Made by a program: the position numbers and the translations under genes. The notes below the pieces were generated by a model. The model searched no databases. It saw only the letters and a program-made list of their open reading frames with translations, and was not told the origin of the DNA. From a virus (taxonomy: Duplodnaviria > Heunggongvirae > Uroviricota > Caudoviricetes), in IMG/VR virus record IMGVR_UViG_2778261570_000004, positions 1-28,792 of that record: a stretch of DNA of 28,792 nucleotides. One strand, written 5' to 3'. This document shows, in pieces, positions 6,231-14,734 of the stretch; the stretch's first letter is position 1, and each line of letters starts with the position of its first letter.

Positions 6231-6338
6231 TGTTAGATGAATGGAATTAATTTTCTAATATAACCAACTTTTTGCCAGTCTATACAGAAATAACATTCTC
6301 ATTATCATCCCCTCGGTCATTTCCTGCCCGGGGGATTA

Positions 6339-6731
6339 ATGGAGCATATCAGCAGCGCAGAAATTGCGGATATCATGATTAGGGCTGACTGCTATCTGAC
6401 AGTCACCGAAATTACCACTCTAGCTAAAGAAAAATATCCTCACCTTCATGTTTCACGCGTAAGTGTAACCAACATCATTCGGCATTTTGTGCGGTCAAGC
6501 CGAGCTATTTGTGAGCTTGATGATCGTGTTTACCCACGGAAATACTGGTTGCATGGCCTGAACGGATATCAGTTCAAGGTGCGCGGGCGCACCCCTGAAT
6601 ACGGCAGTTTGCTGGTTAAAAACTGTAGCCGGAAGTCTGCAGAACTGGCGCGACAAGAGCAGCGCAAGCTGGTGGACATGGCTAATAAGCTGTGGAATGC
6701 CGCAGTTAAAAAGCGTGGTGTTGCTTTATGA
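6339..6731 (+). CDS. hypothetical protein immediately upstream of terminase genes (130 aa)
   Basis: ORF; 4-nt overlap with terminase small subunit gene; position analogous to a late-gene activator in P1-type phages, not verified. Confidence 0.55.
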   Translation: MEHISSAEIADIMIRADCYLTVTEITTLAKEKYPHLHVSRVSVTNIIRHFVRSSRAICELDDRVYPRKYWLHGLNGYQFKVRGRTPEYGSLLVKNCSRKSAELARQEQRKLVDMANKLWNAAVKKRGVAL

Positions 6732-8092
6732 GCCTTGTTAATTGGGAAGAGCACCGCGCCAAATTTATAGCGTTGCGTGAAGAAAAAGGGATCACCGTAA
6801 AGGAATACTGCGAGCAACACGACCTTAGCTTCAATACCGCCAGAAAGCATCTCAATATGAAAAAAAATGAGGTGCGGTCGCAGGTGAAGACTACAAAAAA
6901 AAGCACCAAATCACCTGAAAAAAAACGGGCAGGAAGAGCAAAAAAAAGGCCAGAAGAGGGTACAGAAACAACAAAATTTACAGAAACTGACAATTCACAG
7001 AGCGGAAGTTCTTTCCGGAGCATGCCGAGAAAGAAAACTTCGGATCATAAAAATAACGACAATAATAACAATGAGATAAAAGAATCTGTCAGGAGATCAT
7101 TGCGCGAAAAAATGGCGAAAATGATCCCCACCGAAGATAAATGCGCCTCAAAAATCGAGGGATCTTCAGCAATGATCCCTGGCGGTGCTGTGCAGCGTGC
7201 CACGTTGCCCACTACGAGTGTGGCTCGCGACATGATGAAGAACGGCGCAGAAGAGCACCTGCGGTTAGCAATTCAAATGGCGCAAGAACGCGCACTTCAG
7301 TACCAAAGCATTGTTGATCAGGAGGCCGAACGCCTACAGGCGGAGATAGACGCCCTGGGTGATGAACAGCCAGAAGGAATGCACCCTGGGCAGCGACTTC
7401 TCGGTCTAATCAGTGACGCGGCCTACTACATGAACGATTTTATCAGTAGGTTGGCAGCGATATATCAGTCCGAACAAAAGCTGCGACAGGGTGATGAAAA
7501 ACTTCGTCAGGGTGCTCGCCAGCAAGCATTCAGAGAGGCCGAGGCCAGAGAAAAACTCGAATTAGCACGCCTACAGGCCGAACAGCGTGGCAAAGAGATT
7601 GAATATCGCATTGGCGCTGACGCACGCGCAGCCAGAGTTATCGCCGCCGCTATACGTATGCGTGAGCGCGAGGAGCTGGACGATATCGGTGTTGCTGAAT
7701 ACATCGAGCGTCAGGGTGTCAGTGTCCCGGCTATCCTCGCGGCGCGCGCGGCGAAAGCTATCACTCTTCTCGAACCTCCAGTTTCTGACATCAATGATGT
7801 TGATGATGAACAGCTGGACAAAGAAGCGAAGGAGTTTGCATCGCTTCAGGCTAACCATCCGCAATGGCTGGCAGAGCGCCGGGCGGATGTGGCAACCATT
7901 GTTGAAGATCTGGGGTGCGGAGATTACGACCACAATGGCGAGCGTAAGGCTGGGGAATTCGAGGCCAACGATGAAGAGTTGGACATTGACCCTTCGGCAA
8001 CGGCTGAAATTTACGGTGATTATGATGCATCAGATGCAGGGTATGACGCCGGAGATGATGATATTGCGATAGAACCGCCGGAGGATGACTAA
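6728..8092 (+). CDS. terminase small subunit-like protein (PacA-like)
   Basis: N-terminal HTH-like segment, Lys-rich linker, coiled coil, acidic C-terminal tail; TAATG-coupled to large subunit. Confidence 0.6.
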   Translation: MSLVNWEEHRAKFIALREEKGITVKEYCEQHDLSFNTARKHLNMKKNEVRSQVKTTKKSTKSPEKKRAGRAKKRPEEGTETTKFTETDNSQSGSSFRSMPRKKTSDHKNNDNNNNEIKESVRRSLREKMAKMIPTEDKCASKIEGSSAMIPGGAVQRATLPTTSVARDMMKNGAEEHLRLAIQMAQERALQYQSIVDQEAERLQAEIDALGDEQPEGMHPGQRLLGLISDAAYYMNDFISRLAAIYQSEQKLRQGDEKLRQGARQQAFREAEAREKLELARLQAEQRGKEIEYRIGADARAARVIAAAIRMREREELDDIGVAEYIERQGVSVPAILAARAAKAITLLEPPVSDINDVDDEQLDKEAKEFASLQANHPQWLAERRADVATIVEDLGCGDYDHNGERKAGEFEANDEELDIDPSATAEIYGDYDASDAGYDAGDDDIAIEPPEDD

Positions 8093-9600
8093 TGGCTGGT
8101 GGGCGCAAGATTAAATGCGTCACCAGCGATCCACGCTGGCGCGATATGGTAATCAAATACCGCTACAACTTTACCCAGGCTGTTGTTGATATATTCGGGA
8201 TGTTTCCCTCCCACCAGCAGCAGGAGATTATCCAGTCCGTACAGCAAAAAGGGAGCAGAACCACTGTTACCTCTGGTCACGGTACAGGGAAATCGTCGCT
8301 AACGGCTATGTTGTTGCTGATTTATTTGATTCTGTTCCCCGATGCCCGTGTCATCATTGTTGCTAACAAAATAGGTCAGGTTAAGACAGGTGTATTCAAA
8401 TACGTTAAACAGTATTGGGCGAATGCCGTTAAGCGTCATGGGTGGTTACAGACCTATTTTGTCCTGTCTGACACCATGTTTTATGAACGCTCTCGAAAGG
8501 GGATCTGGGAAGTTCTCTGCAAAGGCTATCGACTCGGTAACGAAGAAGCTCTGGCGGGGGAGCACGCGGCACATTTGCTTCTAATTCTGGATGAAGCATC
8601 AGGTATATCTGATAAAGCGATCGGCGTAATGACTGGCGCTCTGACTGAAGAAGATAACCGAATGTTGATGCTATCCCAGCCAACAAGGCCAAGTGGTTAT
8701 TTCTACGATTCGCACCATTCTCAAGCTAAAACCCCAGACAACCCGAAAGGGATCTGGACAGCAATTGTTCTTAACTCAGAAGAATCACCGTTCGTCACAC
8801 CACAATTCATCAGGCAGAAACTCCTGGAATATGGCGGGCGCGATTCTATTGAGTACATGGTCAAGGTTCTTGGTCAGTTTCCTCGGGAGATTAACGGCTA
8901 TTTGCTTGGTCGTGATGAATGCGATCGCGCTGCGCGGCGCAAGGTGTTGTTGGAGAAAAACTGGGGATGGGTGGCTACTGCTGACGTTGGTAACGGGCGA
9001 GACAAGTCAGTTCTTAATATCTGTAAAGTGTCTGGTCACCGGGAAAAGCGGCGTGTTGTTAACTTTAAGGTAATGGAAATGCCAGGGACTATGGACCCGC
9101 TGGCTTTTGCTGACTTTATATACAACGAATGCACGCCGGATAAATACCCGAATATTACAATCGCGGTTGACGCAGACGGTTTTGGTTCAGATACCTGTGC
9201 GCAGCTGGTGCGCCGTGGGGCTAATCCGGTACGGATTCGGTGGGGGAAACCCATGTTTTCGAACAAAGACAAGGAGCGTTTTGTTAACCAGCGTGCCTAC
9301 GCAAATATTATGGCTCGTGATGCCATAAAGTCAGGTCGTATGCGAATAGACAGCGACCCTAAAACGGCAGAGCAAGCGTCAAAAATCCCCTTTTTACTTA
9401 ATGAAGAAGGGAAGATGGCGATGATGCGCAAGGAGCACATGCGGCAAAAGCTGAACATCAAATCACCTGACCGATGGGATACCTACTGCTTTACAATGCT
9501 GGTGGACTATGTTCCTGCTAATGAAGATATCGGCGCTGAAATGGCTACCTTCCGCGATCAGGTTCTTGCAGATGTAGAAATGCCAGATCTGGATATTTGA
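8092..9600 (+). CDS. terminase large subunit (PacB-like)
   Basis: Walker A SGHGTGKSS, Walker B LLLILDEAS, C-terminal acidic nuclease-like segment ITIAVDADGFGSD. Confidence 0.8.
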   Translation: MAGGRKIKCVTSDPRWRDMVIKYRYNFTQAVVDIFGMFPSHQQQEIIQSVQQKGSRTTVTSGHGTGKSSLTAMLLLIYLILFPDARVIIVANKIGQVKTGVFKYVKQYWANAVKRHGWLQTYFVLSDTMFYERSRKGIWEVLCKGYRLGNEEALAGEHAAHLLLILDEASGISDKAIGVMTGALTEEDNRMLMLSQPTRPSGYFYDSHHSQAKTPDNPKGIWTAIVLNSEESPFVTPQFIRQKLLEYGGRDSIEYMVKVLGQFPREINGYLLGRDECDRAARRKVLLEKNWGWVATADVGNGRDKSVLNICKVSGHREKRRVVNFKVMEMPGTMDPLAFADFIYNECTPDKYPNITIAVDADGFGSDTCAQLVRRGANPVRIRWGKPMFSNKDKERFVNQRAYANIMARDAIKSGRMRIDSDPKTAEQASKIPFLLNEEGKMAMMRKEHMRQKLNIKSPDRWDTYCFTMLVDYVPANEDIGAEMATFRDQVLADVEMPDLDI

Positions 9601-13014: not shown

Positions 13015-13505
13015 TTTACGTAAAAGTGAAACGCCTACATCCGGCAGCAAAACTTCCAGCTTATGCCACCTCCGGATCGGCGGCGATGGATTTTGAGGCT
13101 GTTGAAATAAAACCATGCGTCGATAGCAATGGTGCAATTTCCTCAAGCTGGTGGGTGTATACCGGACTGGCTATGGAGATCCCGCCCGGCTGGTGTCTGA
13201 AACTCTATCCGCGATCAGGATTGGGCTGCAAAAAACATACTCGCCTGGCTAACTGCGTAGGAATTATCGACTCCGATTATCGCGGCGAAATCATGGCAAA
13301 ACTGATTACTGATCCAGGCGGGGAAGGCGTTTGTCTCAAGCCTGGAATGGCTGTCATGCAAGGAATTTTTGAGCGTGTTGAACAAGTCTCACTAGTCGAG
13401 GTTGAGGAACTCAACGAAACGGAGCGTGGTGCTGGTGGCTTTGGTAGCACATCGGAAGGCCACTTTGAAATTAAGCGTTCACCGCTTCAGTACGAAAAGT
13501 TATAA
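13011..13505 (+). CDS. dut: dUTPase homolog (trimeric Dut family) with divergent motif IV
   Basis: Motifs SGSAAMDF, YPRSGLG, GIIDSDYRGE, RGAGGFGSTSEG present; motif IV reads GMAVMQ where E. coli Dut has GERIAQ. Confidence 0.7.
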   Translation: MIYVKVKRLHPAAKLPAYATSGSAAMDFEAVEIKPCVDSNGAISSSWWVYTGLAMEIPPGWCLKLYPRSGLGCKKHTRLANCVGIIDSDYRGEIMAKLITDPGGEGVCLKPGMAVMQGIFERVEQVSLVEVEELNETERGAGGFGSTSEGHFEIKRSPLQYEKL

Positions 13506-13519
13506 GCAGAGAAAAGACT

Positions 13520-13960
13520 ATGAATAACATGGCAACGAAAGAGCTTTTTAAGTTCCGTCCCAAATACAAAGCTCACAAAAAAAATGGAACCACGGTCATC
13601 ATTACGGATGACAACGGCGTGATGATTAATCTTACCGGGAGCGTAACTATTTCTGCTGGTGGCATCACCACCCAGCAAGAAGAAATCGACCTTGAAGCAG
13701 CCGACTTTTCAGACGCGCTGATGTGGCTGAAGGAAGGCAAGAAAGTTGCTCGACGCGGGTGGAACGGCGAAAACCAATTCTGCTGGCTGGTTCCTGAAGG
13801 ACAGTACCCGGCACGAATGGAAGCCATTAAGGGATATTTCCCCGGCGACCTCGTTCCGTATGGTGCTTATTTCGCCTTAAAAAATGCACAAGGTGTAGTT
13901 GTTCCGTGGGTGCCTTCAGTTGGCGACCTGCTGGCCTGTGACTGGTTTGTTGTGGAGTGA
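13520..13960 (+). CDS. DUF2829-like protein (146 aa)
   Basis: C-terminal ALMWLKEGKKVARRGWNG...PWVPSVGDLLACDWFVVE matches the DUF2829 pattern as recalled. Confidence 0.6.
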   Translation: MNNMATKELFKFRPKYKAHKKNGTTVIITDDNGVMINLTGSVTISAGGITTQQEEIDLEAADFSDALMWLKEGKKVARRGWNGENQFCWLVPEGQYPARMEAIKGYFPGDLVPYGAYFALKNAQGVVVPWVPSVGDLLACDWFVVE

Positions 13961-13966
13961 TTTGAC

Positions 13967-14734
13967 ATGGAAAGCACTAAAACAATTCAATACCGCTTGC
14001 GTAATGGCCTGCTGGTGGCTGTTAACGCCGACATGTCACTGCCGTTTGACACGATTGAACGCACTATCATGACGTATCTCGGCTTTAATGAAGAGCTGAA
14101 TGAAGAGCATGGCGTAGCTATATGGAGTGATGCAGACAGCGGCGTTCGTCGTTACATCACCGCCAGGGGCAAAGACTACTCTCTGGAAGAACTGTTTGCC
14201 CTTGCGCAGTCTTTCGAATGTGTAGCATTAGACCTGTTTAATGATCCTGCTATAGCGCAACGACTTATACGCGAGCTTGGGCTATCCGTTACACCAATTA
14301 TATTTAAAAATGGCAGCCTGACTGGCACATGGCGCGTAGAACGCATCTCAAACTACCTTCCATATAACCGACAGTTAAATGGAGTAATCTCCGGCGTTAA
14401 CCAGCCCGTAGCGTGTGAAAATGTAAACCTGGTTGTCGCTGTTTTGGCAACCGCATGTCGTGTTATCGGTTTGGCTAAACAGGCATTTATTCATTTCCCA
14501 AATGGTGCAGAAGGTAGCGCAGAGATTATCGCGTGTGATTTCGAATTTACCTGGATGCTACGCGAATATCTGGACCAAACAGTATTCCGTGCCGAAGAAC
14601 TGGATATGTATATCACGTCAACGATTCCAGACGATGTGCGAGCTGAAGCAATCGCTACAGCCAGGGCGAAATGCCGTGCGGCGATTGCAGAACAGGCCAA
14701 AGAAGAAGTTAAGGAAGTGGCAGATGGCGACTAA
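13967..14734 (+). CDS. hypothetical protein (255 aa)
   Basis: ORF; SD-like AAGGAAG for the next gene lies in its 3' end. Confidence 0.55.
   Translation: MESTKTIQYRLRNGLLVAVNADMSLPFDTIERTIMTYLGFNEELNEEHGVAIWSDADSGVRRYITARGKDYSLEELFALAQSFECVALDLFNDPAIAQRLIRELGLSVTPIIFKNGSLTGTWRVERISNYLPYNRQLNGVISGVNQPVACENVNLVVAVLATACRVIGLAKQAFIHFPNGAEGSAEIIACDFEFTWMLREYLDQTVFRAEELDMYITSTIPDDVRAEAIATARAKCRAAIAEQAKEEVKEVADGD

What the first reader, a model, noticed from the sequence alone, without database searches (positions are those of the whole stretch)
6860..6947. Four A8 tracts within 90 bp inside the small-terminase coding region
Runs of eight A at about 6860, 6895, 6918 and 6940 encode a Lys-rich linker. 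Homopolymer runs of this length in a coding region are unusual: they invite slipped-strand frameshifting and produce bent DNA. In P1 the pac site lies inside the 5' part of pacA. I did not find the P1-type clustered TGATCA hexamers, so this A-tract cluster is a candidate for a different pac signal or a frameshift-prone hotspot.
Basis: seen in the sequence. Interest (0 to 1): 0.4.

Follow-up and report, generated by a model that had tools for sequence, protein, structure and literature searches.

The report
Lysine-codon A-runs in D6-type pacA
The four runs of eight A are real, but three are recent, unconserved by-products of a lysine-rich flexible linker in the small terminase of a D6-like phage-plasmid; the likelier packaging signal is a conserved cluster of GATC motifs about 100 bp downstream, and only the first run sits in a conserved element of unknown function.

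Summary
Observation confirmed: exact A8 runs lie at 6860-67, 6895-6902, 6918-25 and 6940-47. They fall in pacA (6728-8092), which is 93.6% identical to phage D6 pacA, and they encode KK dipeptides in a basic, probably disordered linker after the N-terminal helix-turn-helix domain.

- **Tracts 2-4** lie in the least conserved part of the gene. They are absent from sister D6-type clades, and tract 4 is missing even from D6.
- **Length variation:** I found none in about 49 independent records plus 17 complete E. coli genomes. The only variants are in assemblies that look error-prone.
- **Frameshifts:** any slip gives a truncated 47-116 aa PacA.
- **Bending:** the tracts are poorly phased for a bend (R 0.31 at 10.5 bp).
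- **P1-type motifs are present.** Five GATC sites (consensus aTGATCCc) at 7042-7178 survive in every clade despite amino-acid changes, just as the proven P1 pac hexamers do. Outgroups and P1 carry a second GATC cluster where D6-type genes have the A-rich stretch, so D6-type appears to have lost the left pac arm.

Tract 1 is different. It lies in a 32-nt invariant block (6842-6873) with suppressed synonymous change (P~1e-5), and its function is unknown.

The tracts themselves are ordinary. The single-sided pac candidate and the invariant block are modestly interesting.

The parts
6728..8092 (+). pacA, the small terminase (pacase A subunit), 454 aa
   Evidence: PHROG 1711 'terminase', E 4e-177. 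93.6% nt identity to annotated D6 pacA and 100% to 'DNA pacase A subunit' of E. coli plasmids. Synteny lpa-pacA-pacB-c1-recombinase as in P1.
6860..6867 (+). A8 tract 1 (ATG AAA AAA AAT = M44 K45 K46 N47). Conserved in all D6-type lineages.
   Evidence: A8 in 48 of 49 independent records. The exception is CP042632 (A7), where pacA is left unannotated in a record with only 57 features.
6895..6902 (+). A8 tract 2 (ACA AAA AAA AGC). Lineage-specific.
   Evidence: Present in the window and D6 clades only. L014 has ACAAGGAAAAGC, and the marmotae and dysenteriae clades have unrelated sequence.
6918..6925 (+). A8 tract 3 (GAA AAA AAA CGG). Lineage-specific.
   Evidence: Present in the window and D6 clades. 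A5 or no run in the 70-76%-identity clades.
6940..6947 (+). A8 tract 4 (GCA AAA AAA AGG). Restricted to the window subclade.
   Evidence: D6 and its clade read GCAACAAAAAAG (A6). Other clades have A5-A7.
6842..6873 (+). 32-nt invariant block AGAAAGCATCTCAATATGAAAAAAAATGAGGT containing tract 1. Function unknown.
   Evidence: It is the longest invariant run in a 2.16-kb alignment of 8 clade representatives; the next longest is 16 nt. All 9 degenerate codons are codon-invariant against 28% elsewhere, P~1e-5. One contig in the wider sample (IMGVR_UViG_2579778606_000002, loci L033/L089) carries a synonymous AAT to AAC change at 6868.
6847..6875 (+). Imperfect inverted repeat or RNA hairpin GCATCTCA-N13-TGAGGTGC with the A8 in the loop
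   Evidence: strand folding gives -14.7 kcal/mol, z -3.0 in the window. The stem is 6 bp in the marmotae clade. No covariation test is possible because the block is invariant.
6857..7177 (+). Coding region for the basic, low-complexity linker (aa 44-150)
   Evidence: aa 44-80 are 8% hydrophobic with net charge +9. The A-tract core has 24-26% invariant columns and the rest 30-48%, against 57% overall. Single-sequence AlphaFold pLDDT is <50 for aa 59-110 and 133-170 (weak). The coding strand is 47.5% A.
7042..7178 (.). Cluster of five conserved GATC sites (7043, 7095, 7123, 7161, 7174), oriented consensus aTGATCCc. Candidate D6-type pac (right arm).
   Evidence: Densest GATC cluster in the window. 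4 of the window's 12 ATGATCY lie here. GATC is kept at all five sites in 8 of 8 clade representatives despite S/A/E, R/G, K/E, E/K/Q and A/Q replacements. Four sites are orthologous in the 54%-identity outgroup. P1 hexamers behave the same way.
7092..7129 (.). Inverted repeat (A/G)GGGATCATTT-N16-AAATGATCCC(T) formed by the 7095 and 7123 sites
   Evidence: 9/11 complementary in the window and D6, 10-11/11 in the marmotae, dysenteriae and fergusonii clades.
6788..6795 (.). Isolated conserved GATC (GGGATCAC) inside the HTH-coding region
   Evidence: Invariant 8-mer in all clades. Any role is unknown.
6339..6731 (+). lpa (late promoter activator). Its stop overlaps the pacA start (ATGA).
   Evidence: Pfam PF25716, E 6e-55; sequence.
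8092..9600 (+). pacB, the large terminase
   Evidence: PHROG 2 and 5902; annotated as terminase.

Best explanation
The window is a D6-like, P1-family phage-plasmid. The four A8 runs are pairs of AAA lysine codons with A-ending or A-starting neighbour codons, in the strongly basic, A-rich, fast-evolving linker that follows the N-terminal helix-turn-helix domain of the small terminase PacA. Tracts 2-4 have no function of their own. They arose recently by point substitution in one sublineage, are replaced by other K/R/Q/A-coding sequence in sister lineages, and are held at 8 or fewer because any length change destroys an essential gene. The packaging signal most likely lies elsewhere, in the conserved cluster of five Dam (GATC) sites of consensus aTGATCCc at 7042-7178, which includes an inverted repeat at 7092-7129. 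By analogy with P1, PacA would bind these sites and cleavage would be controlled by methylation. This step is inferred and was not tested here. The A-rich stretch sits where P1 and two outgroup lineages carry the left GATC arm and the spacer of a bipartite pac site, so the D6 lineage appears to have lost that arm. Tract 1 is a separate case. It lies in a 32-nt block under nucleotide-level constraint whose role is unknown; my first guess is a cis-acting DNA element linked to packaging initiation.
For: Identity of the gene. Linker character. Non-conservation of tracts 2-4 and substitution-only differences. Recurrent independent origin of such runs: an Enterobacter plasmid has an A8 (GTA AAA AAA ACA) where its 98%-identical relative has A7. 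No length polymorphism: all 27 IMG/VR and 13 metagenome matches to a pattern allowing A6 plus up to five further bases are A8; 17 of 17 complete E. coli genomes span exactly 131 nt; 48 of the 51 plasmid pacA genes listed at >=93% identity are exactly 1365 nt. Slips give 47-116 aa truncations. GATC cluster: it is the densest in the window; it shares an oriented motif and an inverted repeat; it is retained through amino-acid replacements and enriched about 2-fold over synonymous expectation in every lineage (P 0.005-0.07, against P 0.03 for P1's proven pac). Bipartite GATC clusters occur in outgroups L093/L156, L097 and P1. Positive control: P1-like contigs keep GATC at 7 of 8 sites inside their most variable segment. 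P1 pac anatomy: and PMC10028697.
Against: No packaging ends were mapped, so the pac assignment rests on conservation and analogy. The D6-type cluster is sparser (5 sites in 132 bp) than either P1 arm and is one-sided, whereas from my recollection of the P1 literature both arms are needed in P1. Per-lineage enrichment P values are modest. Four A8 runs exceed the codon-usage expectation (P 0.00045), so a selective or mutational push toward A-runs in this sublineage is not excluded. Consensus assemblies hide within-population length heterogeneity. I could not read the D6 genome paper (Gilcrease and Casjens 2018), which may already describe the D6 pac site.
Confidence: 0.65

Rival explanations
1. 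The A-tract array is an intrinsically bent DNA element that forms part of the D6-type pac site. It would replace the IHF-bent spacer and left arm of P1 pac, as the phased poly(A) tracts do in pacL of Bacillus phage SPP1 (SPP1 comparison from my own knowledge).
For: The array occupies the position of the left GATC arm and spacer of P1, L093/L156 and L097. P1's spacer holds an A-rich IHF site. The outgroup spacer also carries an A7 or A8. Tracts 2-4 are coherent at about 11.3 bp (R 0.99), and a crude wedge model puts 6850-6950 near the 95th percentile of the window.
Against: Tracts 2-4 are missing in sister D6-type clades that keep the same PacA, PacB and GATC cluster. Phasing at 10.5 bp is poor (R 0.31), and A/T-tract phasing is no better than random placement in any lineage (P 0.07-0.96). 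Stronger predicted curvature lies at 7100-7160 and at several places elsewhere in the window. The wedge parameters were recalled from memory.
Confidence: 0.12
2. Tract 1 and its invariant block form a programmed slippage site, transcriptional or -1 ribosomal. It would yield a roughly 47-aa HTH-only PacA fragment that regulates pac recognition, by analogy with dnaX gamma or IS OrfA.
For: A8 is invariant across clades only 70-76% identical. The block shows suppressed synonymous change. One added A or a -1 shift reads KKK then TGA immediately.
Against: From my own knowledge, A8 is below the roughly A9 threshold for efficient E. coli RNA polymerase slippage. The in-phase heptamer is A_AAA_AAU, not A_AAA_AAG. 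The only predicted hairpin encloses the run rather than following it. One contig has AAC, which removes the immediate TGA. The run is absent from L093, L097 and P1. No alternative-frame ORF exists.
Confidence: 0.07
3. The A8 runs are a mutational hotspot, a contingency locus, that switches packaging on and off in phage-plasmid populations.
For: Homopolymers are slippage-prone in general. Three records carry 1-nt length changes in or near A-runs: CP042632 has A7 in tract 1, MK356557 has several, and CP058777 has A7 in the A6 at 7107.
Against: Those records also have other broken genes or many indels and low feature counts (57-84, against 97-105 in the four fully annotated relatives fetched), which fits long-read homopolymer errors. 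All other records, including Illumina metagenome contigs, have exact lengths.
Confidence: 0.06
4. The invariant block is an internal translation-initiation region for an N-terminally truncated PacA starting at M44, comparable to what I recall of SPP1 G1P*.
For: The block is centred on ATG 6857 (-15 to +17). The ATG and an A-rich downstream sequence lie in the loop of the predicted hairpin.
Against: There is essentially no Shine-Dalgarno pairing (-0.1 kcal/mol; 77% of all ATGs in the window do as well or better). Met is not conserved in L093 (Leu), L097 or P1.
Confidence: 0.06

Closest known systems
Bacteriophage P1 pac site inside pacA (161-162 bp; 4 + 3 TGATCA/G hexamers with Dam sites, an IHF site, and central cleavage)
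   Same: Same gene, same synteny and the same place in the gene, namely the variable linker after the HTH domain. GATC-containing short repeats are kept by selection inside otherwise fast-evolving coding sequence (PMC10028697).
   Different: The D6-type motif is asymmetric, aTGATCCc, in mixed orientation. There is one cluster of 5 sites in 132 bp rather than two dense arms. The left arm's position is filled by the Lys-rich A-tract stretch. No IHF consensus match was found. Cleavage position and Dam dependence are untested.
Phage D6 pacA (AY753669, MF356679)
   Same: 93.6% nt identity. Same linker, tracts 1-3, invariant block and GATC cluster.
   Different: D6 lacks tract 4 (AACAAAAAA). Neither D6 record annotates a pac feature in the stretches fetched around pacA.
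SPP1/SF6 pacL phased poly(A) tracts giving an intrinsic bend for small-terminase binding (my own knowledge)
   Same: A-tracts inside or next to the small-terminase gene, near the packaging start.
   Different: Here the tracts are not phased at 10.5 bp, are not conserved among close lineages, and lie in coding sequence as Lys codons.
Programmed slippage at A-runs: dnaX A_AAA_AAG -1 frameshift with immediate stop, Thermus dnaX A9 transcriptional slippage, IS elements (my own knowledge)
   Same: Tracts 2 and 4 contain an in-phase A_AAA_AAA. Tract 1 is followed at once by a -1-frame TGA.
   Different: There is no conserved stimulator and no conserved alternative product. The run length of 8 is below the efficient slippage range, and tracts 2-4 are not conserved.
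Poly(A)-track ribosome sliding or attenuation (my own knowledge: needs about 11-12 consecutive A)
   Same: Iterated AAA Lys codons.
   Different: The runs are only 8 long and are separated by 14-27 nt.

Membership tests
PacA-type small terminase (P1/D6 family) | Sequence homology to PacA, and an lpa-pacA-pacB gene order | tested here: met
   PHROG 1711, E 4e-177. 93.6% nt identity to D6 pacA. 25% aa identity to P1 PacA along the full length. Synteny.
P1-type pac site | Located in the 5' third of pacA, in the linker after the HTH domain | tested here: met
   The GATC cluster lies at pacA nt 316-450. P1's lie at nt 195-229 and 325-376.
P1-type pac site | Two arms of clustered TGATCA/G hexamers (4 + 3) flanking the cleavage site | tested here: not met
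   There is only one cluster, with five TGATCC/T-type sites. No GATC lies between nt 64 and 315, where the A tracts are. Outgroups L093/L156 and L097, and P1 itself, do have a cluster there.
P1-type pac site | GATC sites maintained by selection inside variable coding sequence | tested here: met
   8 of 8 clade representatives keep all five sites through amino-acid changes. Enrichment over synonymous resampling is similar to P1's. P1 control.
P1-type pac site | IHF-binding site next to the cleavage point | tested here: not met
   No WATCAANNNNTTR match with up to 1 mismatch in 6728-7300. The same scan recovers the annotated P1 site. A consensus scan is a weak test.
P1-type pac site | Pacase cleavage at the site, regulated by Dam methylation | not testable with these tools
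   This needs virion-end mapping or a pac-cleavage assay in dam+ and dam- hosts.
Programmed -1 frameshift or transcriptional slippage site | A conserved slippery run with a stimulatory element and a conserved alternative product | tested here: not met
   Tracts 2-4 are not conserved. All shifted products are short truncations. There is no downstream stimulator, and the hairpin encloses tract 1.
Phase-variable homopolymer (contingency locus) | Tract-length polymorphism among isolates | tested here: not met
   The only variants are in records with other frameshifts. Within-culture heterogeneity was not testable.
Intrinsically bent phased A-tract array | A-tracts repeated in phase with the helix (about 10.5 bp) and conserved | tested here: not met
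   R 0.31 at 10.5 bp. No lineage is better than random placement. Modelled curvature is about the 95th percentile only.

The most novel reading that the evidence does not exclude
The 32-nt invariant block around tract 1 (6842-6873, an inverted repeat with the A8 in its centre) is a new cis-acting element. It could be the D6-lineage replacement for the lost left arm of the ancestral bipartite P1-type pac site, so that D6-type pacase recognises a composite signal: the block, about 170 bp of A-rich spacer, then the TGATCC cluster. Alternatively it could be a slippage site that yields an HTH-only PacA fragment.
Probability: 0.2. Interest if true: 0.5.

Novelty: new variant of a known kind. Interest (0 to 1): 0.3.

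Why it matters
D6-like phage-plasmids are common in E. coli, Salmonella and Shigella. One search found 121 plasmid records, and the literature links them to resistance-plasmid-bearing clones (PMC6799933). Knowing their pac site matters for predicting generalized transduction and for building packaging vectors, as has been done with P1 pac (PMC10028697). The result clears the eye-catching A-runs of a special role. It points instead to a testable pac candidate, a one-sided TGATCC/Dam cluster. It also suggests that pac architecture has been remodelled within the P1 family while staying embedded in the same disordered linker of the small terminase.

Tried and rejected
- **D6 genome paper:** Gilcrease and Casjens 2018 is not held, nor is the P1 genome paper. 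I therefore could not check whether the D6 pac site is already described.
- **Other searches for relatives:** tblastn of PacA against the phage collection found only D6. The genome-contig scan found no relative.
- **Rfam:** no family matched in 6300-7400 at E<=1.
- **Promoter and terminator scan:** nothing at the block or the tracts. One weak minus-strand promoter-like hit lies at 7071-7044, within chance expectation.
- **P1 late-promoter motif:** the LPpac sequence was not found in the window.
- **Block repeats:** the block is unique in the window at up to 3 mismatches.
- **IHF consensus:** no match.
- **Internal start at M44:** rejected, because there is no SD pairing.
- **PDB sequence search:** no hit.
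- **AlphaFold:** the single-sequence model is low confidence (pTM 0.25). I used it only as weak support for the domain layout.
- **P1-like contigs:** the IMG/VR P1-like contigs are all >=94% identical to P1, so they serve only as a shallow positive control.
- **Contig break:** two contigs of one isolate assembly break at 7047-7057 with an 11-nt overlap. This is a single case and is not taken as evidence for a pac end.
- **8-mer inverted repeat:** ACCGCCAG at 6836 and CTGGCGGT at 7179 are not conserved in other clades. I treat the pair as chance.

Full report
**Observation.** The sequence has exactly eight A at 6860-6867, 6895-6902, 6918-6925 and 6940-6947. The whole 28,792-bp window has one other A8 (13577) and no run of eight T, C or G. 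Five A8 in total is within the range of dinucleotide-preserving shuffles (mean 3.2), but four within 88 bp is not. When PacA is back-translated 20,000 times with the codon usage of neighbouring genes, the mean number of A>=8 runs is 0.71 and P(>=4) is 0.00045.

**What the locus is.** The runs lie in a 454-aa ORF (6728-8092, +). It matches PHROG 1711 'terminase' at E 4e-177. It is 93.6% identical in DNA to the annotated pacA of phage D6 and 100% identical to 'DNA pacase A subunit' genes of about 90-kb non-mobilizable E. coli plasmids. It is flanked by lpa (6339-6731, Pfam PF25716) and pacB (8092-9600), followed by a repressor gene on the other strand and a tyrosine recombinase gene, which is the P1 gene order. 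The window is therefore a D6-like, P1-family phage-plasmid.

The runs encode M-KK-N, T-KK-S, E-KK-R and A-KK-R, starting in different codon phases. Residues 44-80 are 8% hydrophobic with net charge +9. A single-sequence AlphaFold model gives a confident three-helix N-terminal domain (aa 6-58), very low confidence for aa 59-110 and 133-170, and a long helical C-terminal part (pTM 0.25, weak support only). 'Lys-rich linker' is a fair description.

**Conservation.** I aligned the 5' 570 nt of pacA from the following sources:
- D6;
- seven plasmids spanning 70-100% identity (E. coli, Shigella, Salmonella, E. marmotae, E. fergusonii);
- 27 IMG/VR contigs;
- 13 metagenome contigs.

Tract 1 is A8 in every lineage. 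Tract 2 and tract 3 exist only in the close D6 and window clades, and one member (L014) has ACAAGGAAAAGC at tract 2. Tract 4 is A8 only in the window's own subclade, while D6 reads AACAAAAAA. The E. marmotae, S. dysenteriae and E. fergusonii clades have unrelated K/R/Q/A-coding sequence at tracts 2-3 and A5-A7 near tract 4.

All differences among intact genes are substitutions. In an eight-representative alignment of lpa-pacA-pacB, the segment carrying tracts 2-4 is among the least conserved (24-26% invariant columns against 57% overall). Such runs also arise independently. An Enterobacter hormaechei plasmid of an outgroup lineage has an A8 (GTA AAA AAA ACA) in the same linker where its 98%-identical relative has A7 (GTT).

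**Length variation.**
- A pattern allowing A6 plus up to five further bases at tract 1 matched 27 IMG/VR and 13 metagenome contigs, and all are A8.
- All 17 complete RefSeq E. coli genomes that carry the 131-nt region span exactly 131 nt and annotate an intact pacA.
- 48 of the 51 plasmid pacA genes listed at >=93% identity are exactly 1365 nt.

The exceptions are CP042632 (A7 in tract 1), MK356557 (many indels), CP058777 (an extra A in the A6 at 7107, with pacB also split) and unannotated CP026821. The three annotated exceptions have other broken genes or low feature counts (57-84, against 97-105 in the four fully annotated relatives fetched), which fits sequencing error. Within-culture heterogeneity cannot be seen in consensus assemblies.

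**Frameshift consequences.** Adding or removing one A at any tract gives products of 47-116 aa, and there is no extended alternative frame. Tracts 2 and 4 do contain an in-phase A_AAA_AAA, but they are not conserved. Nothing supports a programmed event there.

**Bending.** The four tract centres give a phase coherence of 0.31 at 10.5 bp per turn and 0.95 at 11.3 bp. In no lineage are A/T tracts in this region phased better than random placement (P 0.07-0.96). A crude wedge model, with parameters recalled from memory, puts 6850-6950 near the window's 95th percentile. It gives higher values at 7100-7160 and at several sites elsewhere in the window. Some curvature is likely, but it is not exceptional and not conserved.

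**Where the P1-type motifs are.** In P1, pacA carries GATC hexamers at nt 195-229 (four) and 325-376 (four, three of them in the defined site). An IHF site and the cleavage points at nt 275-285 lie between them (PMC10028697). The window has no TGATCA cluster, but its densest GATC cluster anywhere is at 7043, 7095, 7123, 7161 and 7174.
- **Shared motif.** Oriented, these five sites and an isolated conserved one at 6790 share the consensus aTGATCCc, in orientations - - - + - +. Four of the window's twelve ATGATCY lie here.
- **Inverted repeat.** Sites 7095 and 7123 form an inverted repeat that is 9/11 complementary in the window and 10-11/11 in the diverged clades.
- **Retention through protein change.** All five GATC persist in all eight clade representatives although the encoded residues change: S/A/E-D-H, R/K-R/G-S, K/E-M-I-P, E/K/Q-G/R-S and A/Q-M-I-P.
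- **Enrichment.** Synonymous resampling gives about 2 expected against 5 observed in each lineage (P 0.005-0.07). P1's proven pac scores P 0.03 in the same test.
- **Orthology.** Four sites are orthologous in a 54%-identity outgroup.
- **Positive control.** 43 P1-like contigs keep GATC at 7 of 8 sites, although pac lies in the most variable stretch of their pacA.

I therefore consider 7042-7178 the best pac candidate. This rests on analogy and conservation, not on mapped ends.

**Relation of the A tracts to pac.**
- The outgroups L093 and L156 have three GATC at nt 157-184, an A-rich spacer with an A7 or A8, and five GATC at nt 380-474.
- L097 has five GATC at nt 151-238.
- P1 has its left arm at nt 195-232.
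- D6-type genes have no GATC between nt 64 and 315.
- In the protein alignment, P1's left-arm peptide (KSMIIDHSNDQHAGDH) lines up with KKRAGRAKKRPEEG.

By parsimony the D6 lineage lost the left arm, and the Lys-rich A-tract stretch now occupies that arm and the spacer. The location is right for a pac component, but the specific A8 tracts 2-4 cannot be the signal, because sister clades with the same terminase and the same GATC cluster lack them.

**Tract 1 is different.** It lies in a 32-nt block, 6842-6873 (AGAAAGCATCTCAATATGAAAAAAAATGAGGT), that is invariant in all eight representatives and is twice as long as the next invariant run in 2.16 kb. Within the block, 9 of 9 degenerate codons with an invariant amino acid are also codon-invariant, against 28% elsewhere in pacA and 4 of 24 in the preceding HTH domain (P about 1e-5). 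One contig has a synonymous AAT to AAC change.

The block contains an imperfect inverted repeat or hairpin, GCATCTCA-N13-TGAGGTGC, with the A8 in the loop. Covariation cannot be tested. I tested four ideas:
- **Internal start at M44:** no SD pairing.
- **Promoter, terminator or known RNA:** none.
- **IHF site:** none.
- **Slippage:** adding one A gives KKK-stop immediately. However, A8 is short and has no stimulator, and the run is absent from the outgroups.

Its function remains unexplained. A cis-acting DNA role in packaging initiation is my first guess, at low confidence.

**Verdict.** The A8 cluster is real and statistically unusual, but three of its four runs are ordinary, recent by-products of an A-rich lysine linker. 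They are not a pac signal, a programmed frameshift site or a demonstrable hotspot. Two things in the neighbourhood are worth noting: a conserved, one-sided TGATCC/Dam cluster that is a variant of the P1 pac design, and an ultra-conserved 32-nt block around tract 1. I could not read the D6 genome paper, so part of this may already be known.

Noticed in passing
window 6842-6873: A 32-nt block that is invariant across D6-type clades only 70-76% identical, with complete suppression of synonymous change (9 of 9 codons against 28% elsewhere). It contains A8 tract 1 and an inverted repeat or hairpin, GCATCTCA-N13-TGAGGTGC. Function unknown.
   Followed up: partly
window 7042-7178: Five conserved GATC sites with oriented consensus aTGATCCc, including the inverted repeat 7092-7102/7119-7129. 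This is the densest GATC cluster in the window and the likely D6-type pac. A crude curvature model peaks above the 99th percentile at 7100-7160.
   Followed up: yes
L028 1-11 and L052 7833-7843 (window about 7047-7057): Two contigs of one IMG isolate assembly (2537562191) end and begin here with an 11-nt overlap (ATGAAAATAA[T]), immediately after the GGATC of the first GATC site. It is a single case and could be an assembly artefact.
   Followed up: partly
window 6728-6731; P1 L002 1444-1529: In the D6 type the lpa stop overlaps the pacA start (ATGA). P1 has an 85-bp spacer there carrying the late promoter LPpac. No LPpac-like sequence was found in the window, so the late promoter serving D6-type pacAB is unlocated.
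   Followed up: partly
L156 (Enterobacter hormaechei p60214CZ_1) pacA nt 201-208; L093 nt 202-208: An independent A8 (GTA AAA AAA ACA) in the linker of an outgroup PacA lineage, lying between its left (3) and right (5) GATC clusters. The 98%-identical relative has A7.
   Followed up: yes
window 7052-7075: An Asn-rich low-complexity stretch (K-NNDNNNN-E, AAT/AAC codons) in the same linker. It varies between clades.
   Followed up: no
window 6881-6917: A perfect 7-bp inverted repeat, CAGGTGA...TCACCTG, encloses tract 2 in a 23-nt loop in the window clade. It is weakened in D6 (CAGGTAA) and absent in other clades.
   Followed up: partly
window 13577-13584: The only other A8 in the window. It lies inside the gene annotated as a DUF2829 domain protein (13474-14136).
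   Followed up: no
L003 (CP058777), L004 (CP042632), L005 (MK356557), L007 (CP026821): Public plasmid records with pacA broken by 1-nt indels, mostly in homopolymers. These are probably assembly errors that cause pacA to be unannotated or split.
   Followed up: partly
window 6788-6795: An isolated GATC (GGGATCAC; G21-I22-T23) inside the HTH-coding region that is invariant in all D6-type clades. It has the same oriented TGATCC motif as the downstream cluster.
   Followed up: partly
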